Origin: an uncultured archaeon
Lineage (GTDB): Archaea > Asgardarchaeota > Thorarchaeia > Thorarchaeales > Thorarchaeaceae
Direction of reading: 5' to 3'
DNA: 64,000 bases
Assembly: GCA_964610875.1 (NCBI GenBank)
Contig: CAZSWP010000003.1
Location: 80,113-144,112 of the forward strand
Shown piece after piece: positions 1,230 through 64,000 of this stretch (positions are counted from its first letter, which is position 1; each line of letters opens with the position of its first letter). The translations under genes and the position numbers were made by a program. The notes beneath the pieces are model-generated. The model was not told where the DNA came from, made no database searches, and was given only the letters and a program-made list of their open reading frames with translations.

Positions 1230-4200
1230 ATGGCTGTTGGTAGAATTGATGGTTTAAAGCAAATGAGATCCAGAGTAGATACTATATTTCCTAACATCGC
1301 CTGGAAAACATGGCTTTTTGGCACAGCCTTTTCTTTTTTATATATTCAAATTGTATACATTTTACCACTTTTTGGATTAGTGGAACCAATGATAATACCC
1401 GGACGAATTATTTTCGAATGTGTTCTGTGTCTGTTATCACTTACCTTTGGTGCAATGGTCGCATATCAAGGATTCAGAGGGCAAATTCCAAGTCCTCAAA
1501 TAGAACATGAATTACTCATATTACATCACGGAAACAAAATTTCTGCAATCTCCTGTCTTGAGCTGGTTACAGTGTCTGGATCGGTTATAACTAGTGAAGA
1601 AGGCATTGCACAATACAATACTGCTATGTTACTAGCTATTAGAGGTGGCGCCAATTCAAGTGTCAGTTTTGCCTATGAAGCAGGCGTGAAAGATGGAGAT
1701 GTCTTTCTGAGAATTTTCATAACAACCACAGCAGGGACATCTACAGAAGCCTCGGAAATAATACAGCGAGAAGCAACTAGAATTGAAGCAGTATTGCTTT
1801 CATCTCTGACAAATATAGAGATTGAAAAACTAACTGGTGCTTCACTCCTTAGTGCTTCAAATTCTATGTTGTTGAAAACGGACCATGATGTTGAGTCTAC
1901 TAAAATTGAGGACCAAAAATTGATTTTGGTCCGTGGAATACCTAAATCTCGCCCTTCTCTCGAGTCCTCTCAGATTGGTACATTCATTTCAACATTATTG
2001 AAACAGAGTTTTTCGGTCAGTTTCACATGTGTGTTTTCGCCAACCAAAGGTAATAGAGAACAAAGAAAGATGGAGAGAGAATGGCAATCAATTCGTTCTA
2101 AGGAAAAGAGAATGGAAGATTCACTTTCTGACCAAGCTAGTAAAAAGAAATTACTCACCGAATATGAAAGAATTCAAGGATCTGGTGGTTGGTTCAAGGT
2201 TTCAGTATATATTCTTATCAAGGATTCTAATCAATCAAATATACCGGTAATTAATGAAGCTGTGAAAGCTATTGTACTCTCAATTTGGGATGATGACTCA
2301 TCACTTTCTTTCAAAGAGTTAGGTTTGAATTCCAGTAGAATTTTCGAATTTACATGTCGCAGACATATAAAATCTCAAAAAATGCATGTAAGTAGATTAG
2401 TATCATATGTCAATACACCAGTACAACGACTACCAGTAATATCTGCACTTGAAATTCCGAAATTTGTTGTACCATCTTCAGATTTGCTCGATAATGAAAT
2501 AGACATTGGTTGGACTGTATTTGAAGGTAAGAAGCTAAATCGTGTTGGATTGAAAAGCAATTGGTTCAGAGAGCATGTTGCAGTTATAGGGGCAACAGGT
2601 ACGGGTAAAACAACATTGGTAAAAAGAATGATTTTGGAGTTGAGTTCAAAATCAAATGTGCCTTGGTGGATATTTGATGTCAAGGGGTCTGAATATTCAG
2701 AGATTGAGAGAATAGGAGAGGTGGTAGTTCTTAGACCAGGATTGGACCGTTCATTTGTGATTAATCTTCTTGATAATAGTGTTTCAACTTCTGGTCAGAT
2801 TCATGGAACGTTTGCACTTTTGAGGGAGCTAATCAATGAAAGTAGTTCGTCTGAGATGTCTCCTGCAATGGAGAAACTATTGCGGCAGTCTGTGTATGAA
2901 CTCGCAAATCAAGATGATGACTGTTCGGTCCAGAAACTTATTGCAATTATTCACCAGATTACAGAAAAGGACCAGAATATGACAATGACTAGAGATGGTC
3001 TATTAAATCGTCTTGAAGTTCTTGTACGTGAACCGTTAGGTACAGTCCTGAGTGGTGGAGATGATGCCATAAGGATAGCAGATTTGTTAGATAGAAGAGT
3101 TGTTTTTGATCTTCGTCATGTATCACGTATTGGAGGAATGGACTCTGTTAGGCTTTTGTACAATTTGGTTGCAAAAAGAATCTTTGAAGCGGCAATGAGA
3201 AGAGGTATAAAGAGTGGATTACATCACGTTGTGGTACTAGAAGAAGCAAATAATTTAGTCCCAGAGAGTTATTCTCGAAGTTCTGCCGCCGAGATTACTA
3301 CTGGCGAATCTATGGTGATGTTACAAAGAGCAACAGGCCAAGGTGTTATCATTGTTTCAACGAGACCAAATATATCATCAAATATTCTTGCGAATACATC
3401 TACAAAGTTCACGTTTCGGCTTCCTTATGATAGTTCTATTGGAGGAAGATATCTTTCTTTAAATGAAACTCAGGAAAAGTATCTTCGTACTCTAAAGCGG
3501 GGACATGCACTAACAATAGTGCCTATGTCTGAGGCTTTTGAAGTTGTTACTGATGTGTTTGATATCAATGACTATATTCCAATTAACAAAGAAGGAGAGC
3601 ACGTTAGACCTGATAGTGGTGTGATTGAGAAAACTCCTTCCGAAAAGGACGAAAATGAGGACAAGTCATCAAAAGAGAAACCTGTTTTCTTCCATCGATT
3701 GGGAGAGCTGACTAACCACATTGTTGCCTATTTGGCATCTAGGGAGATAACTACTCACGAGAATCTTTACAAATACCTATCCACCCTTGATTCAAGAATG
3801 AGGGAAGAAGACATGAGTGAAATAATCAGAGATTTGGTTTCACTCTCCACCGTCCAAAGGGAAGCAATACCCCTCTCTTCAGGAGGATTTGTATATAGTC
3901 TACCGGGCAAGGGGCTTGAAGCAGTAAAGAAGGTGATTATTGATTTCATACTTGAACATGTACAGGATAAAAATCCTGAAACCCAAGTGGAAGTATGTGA
4001 AGAAAAGGTTGACATTCTAGTAGATGATTATGCTTTTTTAGTGATTCCGCAGCATCTCAAAGCTTCAACAATGAAAGAAGTTGTGGACGATATTAGAGAT
4101 AAAATGAACAGTTTAGGAAATGCAGTAAATGGTCTGACAATTGTCGTTAGAGGGAGTGTTGCTGCAGCCAAGTTGAGAGAGCTTTTTGATATCCATGAAG

Positions 4201-44350: not shown

Positions 44351-44450
44351 TGGCGGGCCCGCGCGGATTTGAACCGCGGATCCCTTGCTTACTCCAGATT
44401 GTAAATTATCTTAGGAGGCAAGTGCCCGATCCAGGCTAGGCTACGGGCCC
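44351..44450 (-). tRNA. tRNA-Arg(CCT) with 22-nt 37/38 intron (44390-44411)
   Basis: GGGCCCG/CGGGCCC-G-CCA, CTTGC-ctCCTa^a-GCAAG. Confidence 0.92.
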
Positions 44451-55343: not shown

Positions 55344-56144
55344 TTGTCTAGACAGCTTGGTTACACTCCTAGGAATACCTTCATTCACAGGATTAATCCT
55401 CTATTGAAGTTCTTTCTGTTAATTCTCACACTGATTCTAGTCATCATTATTCCCTACTGGTTCTTTGCTCTTGTTCTTCTCTCTCTCACACTACTATTCT
55501 TCTATCTGGCTGATATTCCCTTCACAGTACGTGTGGGAAGAACAAAGTTCCTCTTATTCTTCTCCTTCCTTCTTCTTATTGTACAAATTCTTGTGACCAC
55601 AAATGGATCTATCTTCCTCTTCATCATTCCAAGATTTGGAGAAGTTGGCCCCGCCATTCCGGTTACCGATTACGGTATAGAAAGAGGTCTATCAATGTCA
55701 ATCAGATTCCTTTTGATAGTATTCGCCAGTATGTTATTTGTGTCCGTGACTGATCCCACTTTACTTGCGCACTCTTTAACAAAACTGAAAACACCATATC
55801 AATATGCCTTCGCACTGATAATTGCACTACGTTTCCTACCTCTTTTCGACTTTGAGAACAAAAAAGTACAGATGGCACAACAATCTCGTGGACTATCTGT
55901 TGAAATCGGGGGAATACGAAAACTGGTACGAACTATTCGCTACACATTCTTTCCACTTCTTGTATCTGCCTTATCGCGAGTGGAAACTCTATCCTTGTCA
56001 ATGGATGGCCGTGGATTCGGGTATGACCCCCATCGAACATATCTCCGTGAATCAGAATGGCAAAAATCAGATTCAATTATCCTATTTTCCATCATTTTTT
56101 TGATCATCTCGTATTTTTTGATAGGTTTCTATATGACATTATGA
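55344..56144 (+). CDS. ECF transporter T component
   Basis: IHRINPLLK, IALRFLP, AQQSRG and SMDGRG Arg motifs. Confidence 0.92.
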   Translation: MSRQLGYTPRNTFIHRINPLLKFFLLILTLILVIIIPYWFFALVLLSLTLLFFYLADIPFTVRVGRTKFLLFFSFLLLIVQILVTTNGSIFLFIIPRFGEVGPAIPVTDYGIERGLSMSIRFLLIVFASMLFVSVTDPTLLAHSLTKLKTPYQYAFALIIALRFLPLFDFENKKVQMAQQSRGLSVEIGGIRKLVRTIRYTFFPLLVSALSRVETLSLSMDGRGFGYDPHRTYLRESEWQKSDSIILFSIIFLIISYFLIGFYMTL

Positions 56145-56165
56145 TAAGTCATTAATTCATCCTTG

Positions 56166-56907
56166 TCATCTCAAAGATTTCTGCATGAAATATCCCGGTA
56201 CTTTGAAACCAAATTTCTTACAATCATCTAGTGAAATCTCATCAAGTGTATGAAGAAGAATGTAAATCCTTGAATAATCATGATTTTTACCCATTTTTCT
56301 GCACTTTTGAATAAAATTTGTCCAATCTTGTCAGATGTATACTCCTGCTTGACAGAAAAATCGTAAATCATGGCAATCATATCATTGAAGTATGCTTTCC
56401 CTATCCAGACATATCCTGCAATTGCACCATCTTTTGTTCGTATTTTCAGACATTGATGGTCATCATCATTTTTGTAACGAGAGAGATATTCTTGATATTT
56501 ATCCTGTATCTCTTTATCAGATATATTTTGAGTAGACCTAACAATTTTTGCAAACTTCTTGATACCAATTTCAAATGCATCATCAAGCGATTCCATCTCA
56601 AGGACCATATCTTGTGATAATTCCACATGATGCGCATTTGGTTCTTTTGAGATTAGGATAGTGTTTACTTCGTATCCACTCGATTCGTAGAAATGTATAG
56701 CTGGTTCATTATGAGAATGAACAAAAAGTCCCATAGAATCTCTCAAATTTGCTGCAAATTCTTCAGCTTTTTGAAGTAAAATTCTTCCAAGTCCCTGTTT
56801 TCGAAAATTCGGATGAACAATTTATGTCAAAATTCAGGAGGAATTGCATCACAATCGAAGGCCTTCAGTAAATCTCGACGTTTTTTGATTTCCTTTTCAT
56901 AGTTCAT
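56166..56907 (-). pseudogene. Frameshifted tandem-GNAT acetyltransferase
   Basis: VHPNFRKQGLGRILLQKAEE lies upstream of the 56228-56746 ORF; the C-terminus (SRIYILLH...KFGFKVPGYFMQKSLR*) is in another frame. Could also be sequencing error. Confidence 0.65.
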
Positions 56908-57057
56908 TATCGTCACCTTTGGGGTCTATAACCGAAGACCAACCTCTATCAACTGTACATTTCTACAGTACGTAATATAAACCGATTGAATCGAGCAGTG
57001 AGATTTCAAATAACATTTTATTGAAGGAACTCTTGAATAGGGGACTAGGTATTCATA

Positions 57058-57903
57058 TTGAAAGTAGACAAAAAACACGCTATACTTGGGATCATCATCA
57101 TAGGGATTGTAGTGACCGGTACCAGCCTTGGTATTTTCCTACTCTCTCCAGAACCTGTAGAATCAAAACTCTTTATTGCAATCCACTGTGAACCCGGAAC
57201 TCTTCCTCAAAGTGTAGATTACCCAGAACAATACTGGTTGGATCTCCGAGCTATGATAATCGAAGCTGATATTCATGACATAAAGCTCACCCTGCTGTTC
57301 AATCCACAATGGGCAACTTACATCCTGAATGACACTAACCGTCTTACGATGGTCAGGAACTGGGATGCAAATGGTCATGAGATAGGACTCCATCATCATG
57401 GTGCTCATATGAACAACTGGAATGGCTATACCAATCAAGCAGACTACCAGACTGGTCCAAAGTATCTTGGTACTATCAGTGACATGATGACTCTAATGAA
57501 TCAACTTCCTGCATCAGGACAAATCAATACAGCCTGTGTTGCTACTGATGAAGACATCGATTACGATTTCCCACTAGATGTGCCATTCCGAACATTTGGT
57601 GGCTCTGATAAATTGGGCCATCTGTGGAGTACTCCTGAAACCAGTACATATAATGAACAGACAGTCCTTGGTGTTTCCCATGCCCGTTTTGCGGACATAT
57701 TATCAGAAGTAAACATAGATCTGGACGAATTCAAAGGATTGGTTGTTCAAAATCAGGAAGAAGTGATGGGTCTTGTCTGGCATGTGTTCAACTATGCTGA
57801 TAATCCCAGTGCATTCATCTCATTATTCGAATATCTGGATGACGAAGGAATTGACACTTGGACTGTTTCAGAGATAATGGAGTCCTACTCTGCCACTGAG
57901 TAA
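57058..57903 (+). CDS. Membrane-anchored NodB/polysaccharide-deacetylase-like protein
   Basis: N-terminal TM; FIAIHCEP, IKLTLLF, GHEIGLHHH, LVWH. Confidence 0.7.
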   Translation: MKVDKKHAILGIIIIGIVVTGTSLGIFLLSPEPVESKLFIAIHCEPGTLPQSVDYPEQYWLDLRAMIIEADIHDIKLTLLFNPQWATYILNDTNRLTMVRNWDANGHEIGLHHHGAHMNNWNGYTNQADYQTGPKYLGTISDMMTLMNQLPASGQINTACVATDEDIDYDFPLDVPFRTFGGSDKLGHLWSTPETSTYNEQTVLGVSHARFADILSEVNIDLDEFKGLVVQNQEEVMGLVWHVFNYADNPSAFISLFEYLDDEGIDTWTVSEIMESYSATE

Positions 57904-58081
57904 TGACTTATGGACAACCATCCACGAAGATGTGGCGAATTCTATAGTCAATTCAAAATCTGTTAGACGAAAAATTTAGTTAAAACGCCTTAAGTAACTA
58001 CAATCCAACAACCGTTGATACGTTCCATTCTTGCACTTCTCTCTGGAAGGGATCCTAGCACGCTGTCCGAGGATGAGCTGA

Positions 58082-58507
58082 GGGCATTCAGAGGAGTTTC
58101 ATAGATACGATACATATGGAAATCGTTGCAATGCAGATAAAAATGGATCAATAATCATCGCTGGACGCCTTATTACGCTCACAAAGTCATTACACTCTGT
58201 GAGAGGACTAGGTAAGTGGGCTCAAGCAGTAGCAAAAGGCTCACGACCAAAAACCCGAGGGAAGCGTTCTCGAAGGAAGTCCTTACTCTCCAAGAAAGAA
58301 TCAATGTCAAGTTCTGGAGAGTCCGCGGCTGTTCACTCTGCTCAAACGAGACTTGTTGATTTTGGTGACGAAATCAAGATGTGTGATAATGACCCCGCCG
58401 TGGAAAAAACTGTAGAAAATCTTTCTGACGTTGGTAGTGATGCACCAACAAAAGGTCAGGAGAAAGAAGCTCCGTCTATTGGAGGGATTGTATCCCAATG
58501 GTATTAG
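58082..58507 (+). pseudogene. 3' remnant of a TnpB/Cas12f-like (IS200/IS605 OrfB) nuclease gene
   Basis: Frame is open from 58082 without a start codon: YGNRCNADKNGSIIIAGR resembles the RuvC-III motif (N/D)ADxNAxxNIA, followed by a low-complexity tail. Confidence 0.5.
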
Positions 58508-58522
58508 ACAAAGTTCCTTCAG

Positions 58523-58657
58523 ACCGTTCATTGTACTCTAGACAATTCTGGACACCAGAGCATTGTCCTCCCAAGAACGGTACTGGGAATGGCTCTGTGA
58601 GGTCATGGTACGTGTCAGGTTGACCTCAGTATTCTTGTACCTTGTCTGAGTATATAA
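58523..58657 (-). ncRNA. 135-bp TATA + structured RNA unit, copy 1
   Basis: TTATATA at 58657-58651, three hairpins, 3' ACAATGAACGGT; homologous to 60382-60516 and 63783-63917. Confidence 0.6.
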
Positions 58658-58889
58658 CCCCCTCCTGAAACATGTCTAGGATTTTTGGAGCTGCTAGCAA
58701 CCCAATTATTTTCGAATCGTTGGGAGTGGTAACACTTGAAGGAGAAGGGTGGAATACAGAAGTCTTACTGTTGAGGTTCACTCACATTCTAAGATAGGTC
58801 AGCAATGGACTGTAGCCATCATAAAAGTCGTGAAATATTAGCTACATTAGCAATCCTTTTATTCTGTTACAGTTGAAAAAGGCCAGCCG

Positions 58890-59025
58890 CGGAGCGTAGC
58901 TCAATCTGGCAGACTGAATCGCAATGCGATTCAGGCCATCAGCAATGGACTGTAGAGAGCTGCCAATTCGGATGGCATTCACAGCTATCCATCGGTTGCC
59001 GGTTCAAATCCGGCCGCTCCGACCA
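58890..59025 (+). tRNA. tRNA-Tyr(GTA) with two introns (22/23: 58913-58940; 37/38: 58956-58986)
   Basis: C1-G72 acceptor CGGAGCG/CGCTCCG-A-CCA; ATGGA-ctGTAg^a-TCCAT; clean BHB TGGC/GCCA at the D-arm intron. Confidence 0.92.
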
Positions 59026-59131
59026 TCTTCTTTTCCTCTTATTACCTTCACCACAGGAGTCCTTCTCAATAAGTAAGATGGTATCCGTTTGGAAACCCGT
59101 CAATATATAAACACATAAACCATAGTTAATA

Positions 59132-60334
59132 ATGGTAATGATAATGAAACCTGTTGAAGTTGTGAAAGATGTCTACTGGGTTGGAGCACTTGATTATAAT
59201 GTTCGTAATTTTCATGGATATAGCTACACTACGCATCATGGAACGACCTACAATGCTTATCTGGTAATTGATGAAAAAATAGCACTTGTAGATGCGGTGC
59301 ACGGTCCTTTCTCTGAGGAGATGTTTGCACGTATCTCAGAAATTATTGACCCCGCAAAGATTGACTTTATGATATCCAATCACACTGAGATGGACCACTC
59401 TGGAGCAATACCTGATGTACTGAAACGTGTTCCCAATGCCAAGCTTGTATGTACTGAAAGGGCAGTTGATGCACTGAAGAAGCACTATCCTGATGGTTGG
59501 GACACCCAGACAGTGAAGACTGGTGATGAGATCTCTCTTGGTAAGAAGACCTTACGGTTCTATGAGGCTCCCATGCTCCACTGGCCTGAGAGTATGTTCA
59601 CCTATTATGTTGAAGAAGAGGTCTTGCTACCCAATGATGCATTTGGACAACACTATGCTACGGAGGAACGCTTTGCAGATGAAGTTGACCAGTATGTCCT
59701 ATGGCGTGAGGCTGAGAAGTACTATGCTAACATCCTTTGGCCACTCAGTCGTATGGTCAAGCGGAAAATAGAGGAAGTACTTGAGCTCGGTCTGCCCATC
59801 AAGATAATCGCTCCTTCTCACGGCTTAATCTGGAGAGAAGACCCTCTTGAGATTGTGAAGAGATACCTGGGCTGGGCAAAGGGAGAACGGACAAATGACA
59901 AGGTGTTGATCGTTTGGGACACAATGTGGGAGAGTACTACAAAACTTGCTCGTGCAATGGCTGAAGGTGTCAAAGCTGCCGGATTGAGACCGCAGCTCAG
60001 GCTGATACCACACAGTGATCGCAGTGATATTATGGGTGAATTACTTGAAGCCCGAGGGATTCTCGTTGGAAGTCCTACTCTTCACAATGATATCCTCCCA
60101 ACCGTGGCACCAGTCCTCTCCGACTTGGAAGTGCTAAAACCTGCAGGGAAGAAGACCGCAGCTTTTGGTTCATACGGATGGGGTGGCGGCTCTGTGAAAA
60201 AGATTCAAGAGGCAATGAAACAGGGTAAGATGGACATAGTCATGGAACCGTTCACTGTGAAGTGGGTCCCAGATACTGATGAACTCGAAGAAGCATTTGA
60301 GTTCGGGAAGAGCTTTGCTGAGAAACTCAACTAA
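59132..60334 (+). CDS. fprA: Flavodiiron protein (FprA/A-type flavoprotein)
   Basis: GTTYNAYL, NHTEMDHSG, PMLHWPESM, DAFGQH, PSHG, flavodoxin domain TMWESTT and FGSYGWGGG. Confidence 0.95.
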   Translation: MVMIMKPVEVVKDVYWVGALDYNVRNFHGYSYTTHHGTTYNAYLVIDEKIALVDAVHGPFSEEMFARISEIIDPAKIDFMISNHTEMDHSGAIPDVLKRVPNAKLVCTERAVDALKKHYPDGWDTQTVKTGDEISLGKKTLRFYEAPMLHWPESMFTYYVEEEVLLPNDAFGQHYATEERFADEVDQYVLWREAEKYYANILWPLSRMVKRKIEEVLELGLPIKIIAPSHGLIWREDPLEIVKRYLGWAKGERTNDKVLIVWDTMWESTTKLARAMAEGVKAAGLRPQLRLIPHSDRSDIMGELLEARGILVGSPTLHNDILPTVAPVLSDLEVLKPAGKKTAAFGSYGWGGGSVKKIQEAMKQGKMDIVMEPFTVKWVPDTDELEEAFEFGKSFAEKLN

Positions 60335-60344
60335 ACATGGAGTT

Positions 60345-60378
60345 GAGTAGCAGTGCCTGTTTTTGAGGCACACTACTC
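60345..60378. terminator. Hairpin downstream of fprA
   Basis: GAGTAGcaGTGCCT-gtttttg-AGGCACaCTACTC imperfect inverted repeat. Confidence 0.4.
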
Positions 60379-60381
60379 TAC

Positions 60382-60516
60382 ACCGTTCATTGTAAGCTGG
60401 ACAAATCTGGACACCGGAGTCTTGTCCTTCCAGAAACGGCACTGGAACGTCACTCCATGGGGTCAGCACAGCGATGTCAGTTGACCTATGAACTAATTAT
60501 GTCCTGAAGCATATAA
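60382..60516 (-). ncRNA. 135-bp TATA + structured RNA unit, copy 2
   Basis: TTATATG at 60516-60510; same three stems with compensatory changes. Confidence 0.6.
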
Positions 60517-60547
60517 GCTCCTGTCAAAAAATTCCAAGTCCATCTAG

Positions 60548-60850
60548 AATTTTCGTAGATACAACCACCCTCGCTGTGTCAGTAGGCTCAAGGGGAACGA
60601 TACCAAGCTCCAAAGACGGATTGATAGAGCCCTAGACCAACTTCGAGCTGATGCCTATGCTGGTGTATTGGTGAAGAGCAGTCGTTGGCCGAGTGAGTAT
60701 AGAGAGCTTGACAACCTGTATGTGTTCAAAATCGACAAGCGGCACAGACTGTTGTACTCAGTTGTCAAAAAGAATGGGCGACGCTTTGTCTTGATACACG
60801 ACTTTCTGAAACATGATGAATATGACAGGCTCTTCGGATACCACACCTAG
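60548..60850 (+). pseudogene. 5'-truncated RelE-like toxin homolog
   Basis: Open frame from 60548 with no start until TTG 60668: LQRRIDRALDQLRADAYAG...NLYVFKIDKRHRLLYSV...IHDFLKHDEYDRLFGY. Confidence 0.55.
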
Positions 60851-61104
60851 AGAGGTTCGTAGGTGTCGAGGATCGCTCTCACTCTGTCACTATCACTGTT
60901 GACCACAACGAATCTTCCATCCACTTCCTCGATGATGTCCTGATCAACTAACTGTCCCAGAATGATGTCAAGGGTTTCTTGTTCCATGCCTTCTAGTTTG
61001 GAGAGGAGTTCGGCTCTGATAGGTGGTTCATCGAACTCTAAAATGACGCTGACTACCTGTTTCAAGTCTACTGAGATAGGAGTTTCAACGTTTCTCATAT
61101 TCAT
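60847..61104 (-). CDS. Small acidic winged-helix-like protein
   Basis: PIRAELLSKL.GMEQETLDIILGQLVDQDIIEEVDGRF wHTH pattern. Confidence 0.6.
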   Translation of the reverse strand: MNMRNVETPISVDLKQVVSVILEFDEPPIRAELLSKLEGMEQETLDIILGQLVDQDIIEEVDGRFVVVNSDSDRVRAILDTYEPL

Positions 61105-61324
61105 ATTTCCTAAAAATTGGCCAATGTGTTTGCCAAGAGCTATTGCTTCTATTCTTGTGTCCTGTCTTTTGTATATAAAACATGAGAAAATTCAACACAT
61201 CGTTCAAATTCGGCCATCTTTTTCATACCATCCAACTCTTTCTGAAAATCTACAGACTTATATGCGCCGCTAAAGAATAATGATCCAGTACGGTTTTCTC
61301 GAACCGTAGGGGGAATGTAACAAA

Positions 61325-62437
61325 TTGCATTGCAAAAAGGAGAAAGCACTAGTAGTATCTATTTTGATAATGCTAGTACAAATAACGAGTTCACTGTATC
61401 TAATGGGTTATTTTATGAACCCTGTCGTGATATGCATATCAGACGACAATCTGGCAAGAGATACAGCAAAATACCTTTCAAACTCACTTGATAACTGCCC
61501 AGTTATTGAAACAGATGATATACATGAGATAAATCGGATAACCACTCATGCATTTGATACTGTCTTCTATGTTGGACATGGAACTGAGAAAGGAATTGAA
61601 TCAAAAAGAAACACAATTGAGTGGGATGCGATTGGAAAGACTATAATCCAATCATTGAGCAATGAACACATGATTCTTGCCTGCAACTCCGAGAATCTGA
61701 ATGTTGAAAGCACCACAAAGACATGGATAACTTTTCCAGGGTTAGTTGATGCCAAAATTGCATCAGATATTACTTTGGCATTACACTTCATGAAGAAAGG
61801 TGATTCTGCTAGGTCGAACGCCTATGGACAACTGGCAACAATCGGATACCTCACAAAAGTGGTGCTTGGAGTTGAAAGACAAGCGTTTCTTGGAATTGTC
61901 TATGATGATGGCGGAGGTGGTACGGGGAGTGATTGGGATTTCTACTATCGGGGAGTCTACTTTGATTCATATGACGTAAATCCAAGCAATGAGGTATATT
62001 ACGATCATCCATCATACCAAACATATTATCGACTACTTGGTGTTGGAGTACCTGATTCATTTACCGTTGGAGATGGATATGATTTGAAGGTCAATCATAT
62101 AGATCGAAATTCAATTATCTTATGGAAGATGGGTGGATTATTAGGCATTGCTGAGTTACTTGTTGCTTTGGGTATTGCAGCTGCTGCTAGTGTATGGGGG
62201 ATCGAAGCTTCACCAATCATTCTAGCATTTGCTGCAATATTGGGTATTTTTGGTTTCACTGTTGCTTACATAGTAGAATCTCTGATTGAAGATGAGATGG
62301 GTGGCGGATGGGTGTTCTACAAGGATATTGATCCCGGTAATGGATTTGTCTGCAAGCTAGGTATGGGTTGGTGGTTTATCGTGTCTGAACTTGGAGGCAT
62401 CATACCCTTCCCCTGTGACGGACATTATGTAAGGTGA
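61325..62437 (+). CDS. Exported protein with caspase/CHAT-like N-terminal domain and hydrophobic C-terminal domain
   Basis: Signal/TM segment; YVGHG and ILACNS His/Cys dyad pattern; DDGGGGTGS linker; long Gly/Ala-rich hydrophobic hairpin. Confidence 0.65.
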   Translation: MHCKKEKALVVSILIMLVQITSSLYLMGYFMNPVVICISDDNLARDTAKYLSNSLDNCPVIETDDIHEINRITTHAFDTVFYVGHGTEKGIESKRNTIEWDAIGKTIIQSLSNEHMILACNSENLNVESTTKTWITFPGLVDAKIASDITLALHFMKKGDSARSNAYGQLATIGYLTKVVLGVERQAFLGIVYDDGGGGTGSDWDFYYRGVYFDSYDVNPSNEVYYDHPSYQTYYRLLGVGVPDSFTVGDGYDLKVNHIDRNSIILWKMGGLLGIAELLVALGIAAAASVWGIEASPIILAFAAILGIFGFTVAYIVESLIEDEMGGGWVFYKDIDPGNGFVCKLGMGWWFIVSELGGIIPFPCDGHYVR

Positions 62438-62446
62438 TATCAAACC

Positions 62447-63040
62447 ATGATTGAAGAACCAACAAAGGAAAGAATCGCAAAGCTTGATATCTGGCTATCG
62501 TTGAACTGGATTCCATTGATAGCAGCATGCTTCATTCTCTTCATGTTGGTTCCATATTTTATTTCGCCTTATGTCTTGATAATTGACAATCCAATGGATA
62601 TCGCACTCATTCAATACATTGGTGAAACGATGGTTAAGCCTCTTCTGTATGCAGGATTTTCTATTGGTAGCCTTCTTGGATTAGTTCCAATTAGATTTTA
62701 TCAGAAAGTTTTTACAGATATTAGAAATGAAGGGCGTTACAAGGTTTTCAAAGTAAGACAAGGGGTAGCTATTATTGCACCATTTTTTGGTATACTTCCT
62801 CATTTTCTCTATGGCATAATGACATTCCTTCCAACTGGTATCGCATCATGGGAGTGGGGTACGATTGTATATCTCTTCGTTACTTTGCCAGCAATTGGTT
62901 TCATGCTTTTCACTTCTCTTGGGTGGATTATTCTAAGATGGAAAGCAGAACACGTTATGAATAACAAGATACATTTCACTCGGATAATTGGCAATGAAAA
63001 AGCCTATTTGCTGACAAGTGAGCCTATCAAGAGGTTTTAG
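62447..63040 (+). CDS. 4-TM membrane protein (candidate immunity partner)
   Basis: Four hydrophobic segments; starts 9 bp after the preceding gene. Confidence 0.7.
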   Translation: MIEEPTKERIAKLDIWLSLNWIPLIAACFILFMLVPYFISPYVLIIDNPMDIALIQYIGETMVKPLLYAGFSIGSLLGLVPIRFYQKVFTDIRNEGRYKVFKVRQGVAIIAPFFGILPHFLYGIMTFLPTGIASWEWGTIVYLFVTLPAIGFMLFTSLGWIILRWKAEHVMNNKIHFTRIIGNEKAYLLTSEPIKRF

Positions 63041-63148
63041 TTCTCTTTCAAATCCGGCCGCTCCGACCATCTTCTTTTCCTCTTATTACCTTCACCACAG
63101 GAGTCCTTCTCAATAAGTAAGACAGTATCCATTTGGAAACCCAAGTTT

Positions 63149-63778
63149 ATGAGAGAAATATTAGGTAGAATGGAAAAAGAGTTAGATCAAGAGGACTGTC
63201 AGAAAATACTCACTGAAGTTGCACATGGGCTTCCAGCGGACTACTGGAAAGCAGAACGAGAACGCTTTGAAGAAGCAGATGATATTGATGATTATATCGC
63301 CAAAAAGCGTGCACGTTCAATTGGAGAATTGGAAAAATACAACAAGAGTGGTGAGTCGTTCTTTGGACAGGAAATCACTGACGAAGTCTTAGCCTATGTA
63401 AAGAGCCGTTCTGACATGCTCTCTGGAGAGAGAAGAGGAAACAAAATCTATCACACAAAGATTCCCTATGACACCAAAAACTTTCTAGCAGCAACTGATG
63501 AGAAGATGAAACGATACTATGCGTGCCATTGTGCATGGGCAAGAGAAGCAATACGCAGCGGCGAAGAGGGCATATCAGCTGATTTCTGCTATTGTAGTGG
63601 TGGTTTTACTAAGAGGCCTTGGGAACAGGCTTTTGGTCAGTATTTGGATGTAGAGATGGTCAAGTCTGTGCTAAAAGGTGACAATGAGTGTTCCTTTGTA
63701 ATTCCAATTCCAGATGAGTTCTTGAAGGGTTTCGTACAGCTCCCAGAATTCCAGACAGACCTAGACATCAGTGTATAG
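63149..63778 (+). CDS. Cys-containing V4R-like / DUF6144-like protein
   Basis: YACHCAW, FCYCSGGF, VEMVKSVLKGDNECSFVI. Confidence 0.75.
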   Translation: MREILGRMEKELDQEDCQKILTEVAHGLPADYWKAERERFEEADDIDDYIAKKRARSIGELEKYNKSGESFFGQEITDEVLAYVKSRSDMLSGERRGNKIYHTKIPYDTKNFLAATDEKMKRYYACHCAWAREAIRSGEEGISADFCYCSGGFTKRPWEQAFGQYLDVEMVKSVLKGDNECSFVIPIPDEFLKGFVQLPEFQTDLDISV

Positions 63779-63782
63779 GCAC

Positions 63783-63917
63783 TTATATACTCCTGACAAG
63801 AACAACTTGGTGAGGGTGTATTGACACACGAACGTGCTCTCACAAAGCCATTCCCAGTACCGCTCCTGGGAGGACAATGCTCTGGTGTCCAGAATTGTCC
63901 AGCTTACAATGAACGGT
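63783..63917 (+). ncRNA. 135-bp TATA + structured RNA unit, copy 3
   Basis: TTATATA at 63783, three hairpins, 3' ACAATGAACGGT ending at 63917. Confidence 0.6.
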
Positions 63918-64000
63918 TGGCATCCTTAGCCCTTTGAAAATTTCATCACGCTTAGTTTCACCAATCTCGTTTCCCATTTCCCTGTGTAAAGTATCCATAA

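What the first reader, a model, noticed from the sequence alone, without database searches (positions are those of the whole stretch)
58523..63917. Three diverged copies of a fixed-length (135 bp) promoter + pseudoknotted RNA unit around the tRNA-Tyr hotspot
Seen: 58523-58657(-), 60382-60516(-) and 63783-63917(+) each span exactly 135 bp from a TTATAT box to a terminal ACAATGAACGGT. Stem 1 differs in sequence but stays paired (TGAGGTCA/TGACCTCA; GGTCA/TGACC; GTGAGGG/CTCTCAC) around a conserved TGACA. Stem 2 covaries (TCCCAG/YTGGGA vs TTCCAG/CTGGAA). Stem 3 is GGACAA..TCYGG-tgt-CCAGA..TTGTCY. The stem-2 loop (ACCGTTC, GCCGTTT, ACCGCTC) is complementary to the 3' GAACGGT, which predicts a pseudoknot; most G-U pairs favour the TATA-defined strand. 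Sequence after GAACGGT is unrelated between copies. Inference: an undescribed ncRNA family. A scaffold closed by a 3' pseudoknot and followed by a variable tail is the layout of TnpB/Cas12f guide RNAs, and a tnpB-like remnant abuts copy 1, so these could be stand-alone guide cassettes. Alternatively they are leaders that sequester the conserved ATG (MNG...) of short peptides.
Basis: partly seen in the sequence, partly recalled or inferred. Interest (0 to 1): 0.85.

Follow-up and report, generated by a model that had tools for sequence, protein, structure and literature searches.

The report
Gene-less IS607 mini-transposons carrying TnpB guide RNA
The three repeats are copies of a roughly 190-bp gene-less mobile element, a cut-down IS607 transposon that keeps its two ends, a promoter-like box and the guide-RNA scaffold of a TnpB nuclease; this is real and well supported, but it is a variant of a known kind of element.

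Summary
All three 135-bp units exist at the stated coordinates. They belong to a family of about 58 copies in this 3.75-Mb genome and hundreds more in related genera.

Each 135-bp unit is the right-hand part of a 181-191-bp element with sharp ends. The 5' part (GGG, then GT..ACAGCT..CCAGACA-N3-CCTAGACAT plus a TATA-like box) matches the left end upstream of IS607-type serine-recombinase tnpA genes. The last 67 nt match the 3' end of a 731-aa TnpB gene. So these are internal-deletion, gene-less IS607 elements that carry a TnpB omega/reRNA scaffold, and the variable tail is the flanking DNA, i.e. the guide.

Junctions follow the published IS607 rule: W-GGG on the left flank and ...ACGG on the right end. 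Covariation supports stem 1, stem 2 and GGACAA/TTGTCC. The 3' pseudoknot is compatible but shows no two-sided compensatory change.

The leader-peptide idea is rejected. The tnpB remnant beside copy 1 is an unrelated TnpB type. Transcription and action in trans could not be tested.

Stand-alone mobilised omega RNAs are already published, and this scan reached the same reading on other pieces of this genome.

The parts
58523..58703 (-). Copy 1, whole mini-element: flank motif GGG (58701-58703), left end, TATA-like box, RNA scaffold, right end ...ACGG plus fixed T (58523). It lacks one of the two 10-nt left-end repeats.
   Evidence: 10-nt variant table 4
58650..58657 (-). Copy 1 TATA-like box TTATATAC, about 29 nt before stem 1
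58523..58633 (-). Copy 1 omega/reRNA scaffold (covariance-model match 1-112, 115.9 bits)
58503..58522 (-). Copy 1 putative guide: 20 nt of flank after the right end. The length is assumed from published reRNAs.
   Evidence: inference from 10.1101/2023.08.09.552727
60382..60570 (-). Copy 2, whole mini-element (GGG at 60568-60570; TATA-like TTATATG at 60510-60516; scaffold 60382-60494)
60362..60381 (-). Copy 2 putative guide (flank)
   Evidence: loose ends at 60382
63727..63917 (+). Copy 3, whole mini-element (GGG at 63727-63729; TATA-like box at 63783-63790; scaffold 63806-63917). It replaces the last 17 codons of the DUF6144 gene 63149-63778.
63918..63937 (+). Copy 3 putative guide (flank)
   Evidence: loose ends at 63917
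58112..58507 (+). Not part of the family: C-terminal remnant (last ~128 aa, 63% identity) of a different TnpB type. Its own 3' RNA (58508-58522 and 58704-58785, ending GTTGAGGTTCACTCAC) is split by copy 1.

Best explanation
Each copy is a non-autonomous, gene-less derivative of an IS607-family transposon. It consists of a left end (the binding-site-like repeats CCAGACA-N3-CCTAGACA and a TATA-like box that sits where the tnpA promoter lies in full elements) fused by internal deletion to the right end. The right end encodes the roughly 105-nt omega/reRNA scaffold of a large (731-aa) TnpB nuclease.

Proposed mechanism:
(1) The serine recombinase TnpA, supplied in trans, recombines the GG cores at both junctions and moves the element to W-GGG-T sites.
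(2) The box drives a short RNA that starts just before stem 1 and reads through ...ACGG(T) into about 16-20 nt of flank, which becomes the guide.
(3) TnpB, supplied in trans, loads this RNA and cuts the emptied site (GGG motif plus flank), so that repair restores the element. The occupied site is spared because it reads CGG.

Shown here: the homology of both ends, the junction motifs, the copy number, RNA covariation, and intact TnpA and TnpB genes. Inferred: transcription, loading in trans, cleavage and homing.
For: - Copy number: about 58 copies with sharp ends on both sides, and several pairs 98-100% identical in unrelated flanks.
- Right end: the last 67 nt match the 3' end of TnpB gene G000:C18:22509-24704. 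The RNA overlaps its stop codon and ends ACAATCAACGGT. Orthologous TnpB genes (47-67% identity) in relatives carry the same RNA.
- Left end: the 5' 55 nt match the region upstream of two MerR-HTH plus resolvase tnpA genes. One relative holds left end, truncated tnpA, tnpB and right end (L047). Another holds a 1.1-kb deletion intermediate (L048).
- Junctions: W (38 of 40) then GGG on the left, ACGG then T (39 of 40) on the right, with no inverted repeats and no target duplication.
- Empty site: the L047 insertion splits a PmbA/TldD gene. Its halves abut without gain or loss on the intact homologue only if one GG is shared.
- Published parallels: a GGG motif against CGG at the right end, a fixed first flank base, and a loop-to-tail pseudoknot (PMC10690162; 10.1101/2023.08.09.552727).
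- RNA structure: 90.9% of cells paired, 21 of 31 pairs with two-sided changes, 0 of 500 shuffles as high, slid controls at most 50%.
- TnpB keeps GADRG, YFENL and HADVNAARN plus two CxxC pairs.
- The model matches full-length in 30 of 41 genomes of the family, up to 60 per genome.
- Orthologous sites in this genome are empty for the relatives' insertions tested.
Against: - I have no direct evidence that any copy is transcribed. No RNA run was available, and about half the copies have a degenerate box.
- The pseudoknot shows no two-sided compensatory change.
- Single-sequence folding is not significant, z -0.7 to -1.7.
- No empty site was recovered for the window's own copies.
- In this genome tnpA and tnpB lie about 5.7 kb apart rather than adjacent.
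- Stem 1 of the mini-elements has no sequence similarity to the matching coding part of tnpB, so its origin is unclear.
- Copy 3 has an A-C mismatch in the new stem, and copy 1 has lost one left-end repeat.
Confidence: 0.85

Rival explanations
1. The elements are mobile IS607 mini-transposons, but the RNA-like part is kept only because the right-end recombination sites lie inside it. No functional guide RNA is made.
For: The TGTCCAG x2 repeats and the invariant 3' tail lie inside the 'RNA'. These parts barely vary, as expected of DNA sites. Transcription was not shown, and the box is degenerate in about half the copies.
Against: Stems 1, A and 2 lie outside the repeats. They keep pairing through many two-sided changes across 13 genera. 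A double-stranded DNA recombinase site would not select for that. G-U pairs exceed A-C pairs 145 to 68.
Confidence: 0.08
2. They are host-domesticated stand-alone guide-RNA genes that programme the single large TnpB for a cellular job such as defence or gene regulation.
For: The ratio of RNA units to TnpB genes is about 50 to 1. Each unit has its own promoter-like box. The RNA is conserved across the family.
Against: The 24-nt tails match only their own locus. One exception looks like a local duplication. Insertion sites are not shared between genera. Near-identical copies sit in unrelated flanks. Copies disrupt genes. TnpB keeps its nuclease residues.
Confidence: 0.05
3. They are conserved promoter and 5' leader units that control translation of short peptides starting at the conserved ATG (MNG...).
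For: ATGAACGGT is invariant at the end of the unit.
Against: Reading frames after the ATG run 3 to more than 100 codons (median about 15), and nothing is conserved after codon 3. The same tail lies downstream of the stop codon of tnpB genes.
Confidence: 0.01

Closest known systems
IS607-family transposons with TnpB and their omega/reRNA (ISXfa1, C. botulinum IStron; 10.1101/2023.08.09.552727, PMC10690162)
   Same: Serine-recombinase TnpA with a MerR-type HTH. GG core at both junctions. GGG flank motif against CGG at the right end. Fixed first flank base. No inverted repeats and no target duplication. The guide-RNA scaffold overlaps the tnpB 3' end and holds the TnpA repeats. A loop-to-tail pseudoknot.
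   Different: Here most copies have lost both genes and are about 190 bp. The RNA is placed about 29 nt behind a TATA-like box of the left end. The TnpB is unusually long (731 aa). The host is an archaeon. No sequence similarity to the published RNAs was tested.
Stand-alone mobilised omega RNAs and gene-less PATE-like IS200/IS605 elements (PMC10691335; PMC10055086)
   Same: Gene-less elements bounded by transposon ends that encode a guide-RNA scaffold. They must use a nuclease and a transposase encoded elsewhere in the same genome.
   Different: Those belong to Y1-transposase (single-strand, hairpin-end) elements. This genome has no Y1 transposase match, and the ends are of the IS607 type.
Classical MITEs
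   Same: Short, high-copy, non-autonomous deletion derivatives of a DNA transposon.
   Different: No terminal inverted repeats and no target-site duplication.

Membership tests
IS607-family transposon (non-autonomous derivative) | The ends are shared with elements that encode a serine-recombinase TnpA (MerR-like HTH plus resolvase domain) | tested here: met
   The unit's 5' part matches the region upstream of two such genes. L047 and L048 join this left end to tnpB and the right end.
IS607-family transposon (non-autonomous derivative) | GG core dinucleotide at both junctions, no terminal inverted repeats, no target-site duplication | tested here: met
   GGG on the left in 40 of 40 copies and CGG on the right in 39 of 40. 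The split PmbA/TldD gene is restored in frame only if one GG is shared.
IS607-family transposon (non-autonomous derivative) | Evidence of mobility | tested here: met
   98-100% identical copies sit in unrelated flanks. Contigs break inside copies. Orthologous sites of relatives' insertions are empty in this genome. No empty allele of the window's own copies was found.
IS607-family transposon (non-autonomous derivative) | Subterminal repeats bound by TnpA | tested here: inconclusive
   Tandem CYWGACA repeats with a 10-nt period are present in the left end and, inverted, in the right end. Binding was not testable.
TnpB omega/reRNA | Homologous to the 3' end of a tnpB gene and running to the transposon right end | tested here: met
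   nhmmer and covariance-model matches at the 3' end of six tnpB genes in five genomes.
TnpB omega/reRNA | Conserved secondary structure supported by covariation | tested here: met
   Caveat: alignment A3 was fitted to stems 1, A and 2.
TnpB omega/reRNA | Pseudoknot between an apical loop and the bases next to the guide | tested here: inconclusive
   91-94% paired but no two-sided change. C at the last position occurs with G in the loop in 5 of the sequences.
TnpB omega/reRNA | The variable guide begins at the transposon boundary | tested here: met
   Similarity ends at GGT in all copies, and the flanks are unrelated.
TnpB omega/reRNA | A compatible, catalytically intact TnpB in the same genome | tested here: met
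   The 731-aa ORF has a TNB domain, RuvC D/E/D motifs and a zinc finger. Compatibility is inferred from RNA homology.
TnpB omega/reRNA | The RNA is expressed and bound by TnpB | not testable with these tools
   Only DNA contig runs were available.
IS200/IS605 PATE | Y1 (HUH) transposase and hairpin ends | tested here: not met
   No PF01797 match in a 95%-complete genome. The ends are of the IS607 type.
Classical MITE | Terminal inverted repeats and target-site duplication | tested here: not met
Any Rfam family | Covariance-model match | tested here: not met
   No match at E up to 1 over 56000-64000.

The most novel reading that the evidence does not exclude
The mini-elements are 'guide-only' parasites of a single large TnpB. 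By placing a recycled tnpA promoter directly in front of the scaffold, they out-express the nuclease's own guide and secure their own retention. Alternatively, the roughly 50 dispersed guides plus one nuclease have become a host-level RNA-guided system. Either way the arrangement has been maintained across a whole family of Asgard archaea.
Probability: 0.12. Interest if true: 0.7.

Novelty: new variant of a known kind. Interest (0 to 1): 0.4.

Why it matters
It explains a high-copy repeat that breaks this assembly and those of related archaeal genomes. It gives exact ends, a junction rule (W-GGG | element | ...ACGG-T) and a covariance model for annotating it.

Gene-less elements that keep a guide RNA under structural selection, about 50 per nuclease gene, are a natural test of whether TnpB retention works in trans for serine-recombinase transposons.

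It also points to a 731-aa archaeal TnpB with a compact scaffold of about 105 nt and a predicted GGG motif, which could be characterised as an RNA-guided nuclease. The concept itself is already published for other transposon families.

Tried and rejected
- Rfam scan of 56000-64000 at E up to 1: nothing.
- ARAGORN did not call the intron-bearing tRNA near 58.9 kb.
- Y1 transposase search: none, so an IS200/IS605 PATE reading was dropped.
- End of a long IS: rejected, because homology stops 181-222 nt upstream even between identical copies.
- The structure string stored with A3 put that stem one column off (62% paired). It was corrected by hand.
- The RNAalifold 3' hairpin (TGTCCA with TGAACGG) shows no two-sided change.
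- Single-sequence folding: z -0.7 to -1.7, uninformative.
- Tails against the own genome: only chance-level matches, plus one local duplicate.
- Leader-peptide reading: rejected.
- Sequencing runs: four microbial-mat or sediment DNA contig sets and no RNA holder listed. No contig bridged an empty site. Loose ends at 60382 and 63917 only confirm the repeat boundary.
- GT or GGT as the crossover core: would leave the split PmbA/TldD gene out of frame.
- PDB sequence search with the TnpB: only weak matches to LaTranC over RuvC-II/III.
- Not done: tails against viral collections, structure prediction of the TnpB.
Full report
OBSERVATION. The three units are present exactly as described: 58523-58657(-), 60382-60516(-) and 63783-63917(+). 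Each runs 135 nt from a TTATAT(A/G) box to ACAATGAACGGT, mean column identity is 76%, and similarity ends at GGT. They are not a local curiosity. The window's own assembly (3.75 Mb, 124 contigs, 95% complete) holds about 58 copies by blastn and nhmmer, and many contigs break inside a copy.

TRUE EXTENT. I extended every copy by 4 kb upstream and 300 nt downstream and compared all against all. Homology stops at GGT on the 3' side. On the 5' side it stops 181-222 nt upstream, even for pairs that are 98-100% identical. The 5' boundary is an invariant GGG followed by GT/TT..ACAGCT..CCAGACA-N3-CCTAGACAT. The 135-bp unit is therefore the right-hand two thirds of a short element with two sharp ends. 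In the window the elements are 58523-58703(-), 60382-60570(-) and 63727-63917(+). The TATA-to-end distance is 135-137 nt in 22 copies. About half the copies have a degenerate box at that place, so the length is typical rather than fixed.

WHAT THE TWO HALVES ARE. The genome has eight TnpB-like genes (PF07282) and no Y1 transposase. Only one TnpB gene, G000:C18:22509-24704 (731 aa, TNB domain only in Pfam), is followed by this repeat. The last 67 nt of the unit (stem 2, GGACAA..TTGTCC and the tail) align with the end of its coding region and the 25 nt after its stop, ending ACAATCAACGGT. Orthologues of this protein (47-67% identity, 712-741 aa, one to three per genome) in related genera carry the same RNA at their 3' ends. 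The protein keeps GADRG, YFENL and HADVNAARN and two CxxC pairs, so it looks catalytically intact.

The first ~55 nt of the unit match the region just upstream of two genes on contig C18. These genes encode 204-206-aa proteins with a MerR-type HTH and a resolvase domain, which is the IS607 type of TnpA. In those full left ends a TATA-like TTATAG lies 8 nt after the same CCTAGACAT motif and about 20 nt before the tnpA ATG. The box of the mini-elements therefore sits where the tnpA promoter is expected. That it derives from the tnpA promoter is an inference.

Two relatives link the halves. L047 has left end, truncated tnpA, tnpB and right end in 2.6 kb. L048 has left end, a tnpA/tnpB deletion fusion and right end in 1.1 kb. 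The units are thus internal-deletion, gene-less derivatives of an IS607-family element.

JUNCTIONS. Across 40 full copies the base before GGG is A or T in 38. The left motif GGG is invariant. The right end is ACGG in 39, and the next base is T in all 40. There are no inverted repeats and no target duplication.

The L047 element interrupts a PmbA/TldD gene. Its two halves abut residue-for-residue on the intact homologue in this genome (...FDSEG | T.SSRT...). The reading frame is restored only if a single GG is shared between the two junctions, which gives an empty site AGGG-T.

This is the published IS607 rule. TnpA strictly needs a GG core. The C. botulinum element inserts at TGGG, which is also the TnpB motif, while its scaffold ends UCGG (PMC10690162). 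ISXfa1 TnpB cuts next to GGG but not CGG, its guide is flanked by CGG, the first flank base is fixed and counted into the scaffold, and TnpA repeats lie in its stem-loop 3 (10.1101/2023.08.09.552727). In the present elements TGTCCAG-N3-TGTCCAG in the right end mirrors CCAGACA-N3-CCTAGACA in the left end.

RNA STRUCTURE. Counting pairs on A2 gave these figures:
- new stem: 95.5% paired, 4 of 6 pairs with two-sided changes
- stem 2: 98%
- GGACAA/TTGTCC: 97%
- stem 1: 79% on the MAFFT alignment
- loop/tail pseudoknot: 91%

I built a covariance model (R1). It finds full-length matches in 30 of 41 genomes of the taxonomic family, 13 of 16 genera, up to 60 per genome. A DNA search found none in the 16 genomes sampled from other families.

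On the model-based alignment of 56 distinct sequences (A3), after I corrected a one-column offset in the stored structure, 90.9% of cells pair. 21 of 31 pairs show two-sided changes, 0 of 500 shuffles reach this, and slid controls reach at most 50%. Stem 1 now has two-sided changes in all 8 pairs. One pair of the new stem is GC:23 against AU:22. The inner stem 3 is 61% paired.

The pseudoknot is 94% paired but varies on one side only, so it is compatible but not demonstrated here. An equivalent pseudoknot was confirmed by compensatory mutation in ISXfa1. G-U cells outnumber A-C cells 145 to 68, a mild vote for the TATA-defined strand. Single-sequence folding is not significant.

Caveats: A3 was fitted to stems 1, A and 2, and the sequences are related to one another.

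MOBILE OR DOMESTICATED? The 24-nt tails have no second match in the genome beyond chance, apart from one local duplicate. For several relatives' insertions both flanks map to one contiguous region of this genome that has no unit (L061 on C33, L073 on C36). Copy 3 replaces the last 17 codons of a DUF6144 gene. Copy 1 sits inside the 3' RNA of another TnpB type. These are the marks of a transposon, not of fixed host genes.

The leader-peptide alternative fails. Frames after the ATG are 3 to more than 100 codons long with nothing conserved.

MECHANISM. Most likely (0.85 for identity; about 0.6 that the RNA acts in trans): TnpA moves the elements through GG cores to WGGG(T) sites. The left-end box drives a scaffold of about 105 nt that reads into the flank. 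The single large TnpB uses these RNAs to cut emptied sites, and the occupied site is protected by CGG. Only the sequence-level parts of this are shown. No RNA data were available, and the contig runs from microbial-mat metagenomes neither bridged an empty site nor informed on expression.

COMPARISON AND NOVELTY. Stand-alone, mobilised omega RNAs that work in trans are already reported (PMC10691335), as are gene-less PATE-like IS605 elements that encode omega RNAs (PMC10055086). A search for papers combining TnpB, IS607 and MITE found nothing relevant. The IS607 study used only an engineered mini-element. This is therefore a new variant of a known kind: serine-recombinase type, archaeal promoter-like box fused to the scaffold, very large TnpB, family-wide spread.

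Other agents of this scan reached the same reading on other pieces of this genome and called the host Thorarchaeota. I did not test that taxonomic label. I had reached my reading before seeing those notes, as stated.

Noticed in passing
window 59003-59098 and 63047-63142: A 96-nt direct repeat (97% identical), made of the tRNA 3' end plus downstream DNA, brackets a 4.0-kb segment. The segment holds a flavodiiron-like gene, copy 2, a weak HigB-like ORF and two ORFs without any Pfam match. It looks like att sites of an integrated element at the tRNA, yet I saw no integrase inside.
   Followed up: partly
window 58112-58507 and 58704-58830: The remnant of a second TnpB type has a 3' RNA ending GTTGAGGTTCACTCAC. 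This resembles the GTTCACTCA motif reported downstream of Asgard aCas1-linked TnpBs (PMC10691335). About 15 nt after it, CAGCAATGGACTGTAG recurs inside the neighbouring tRNA (58941-58956).
   Followed up: partly
window about 58886-59025: A tRNA-like gene (anticodon region GACTGTAGA, apparently with introns) is called neither by ARAGORN nor by Rfam.
   Followed up: no
G000:C18:16147-24729 (L052, L031) and C18:60599 to the contig end (L053): Left end and tnpA lie 5.7 kb from tnpB and the right end, with a 1181-aa ORF without any Pfam match on the opposite strand between them. A second, about 69% identical, collinear copy (1235-aa ORF) runs off the contig end. This is a candidate 8.6-kb cargo-carrying IS607 transposon.
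   Followed up: partly
L047 (G008:C1), 1462-4106: An IS607 copy with a truncated tnpA splits a PmbA/TldD metallopeptidase gene. It was used here to reconstruct the empty site.
   Followed up: yes
window 58672: Copy 1 lacks one 10-nt left-end repeat. One contig of run X3 carries the extra TGTCTAGGAT at this place, most likely from another copy or a variant allele.
   Followed up: partly
window 44351-44450: ARAGORN reports a 100-nt 'tRNA-???' with a four-base anticodon (ccta) on the minus strand.
   Followed up: no
window 63806-63917: Copy 3 and its twin at G000:C2:111566 have an A-C mismatch in the new stem (CAAAG with CTCTG). Three 99%-identical copies have the compensated CTTTG.
   Followed up: yes
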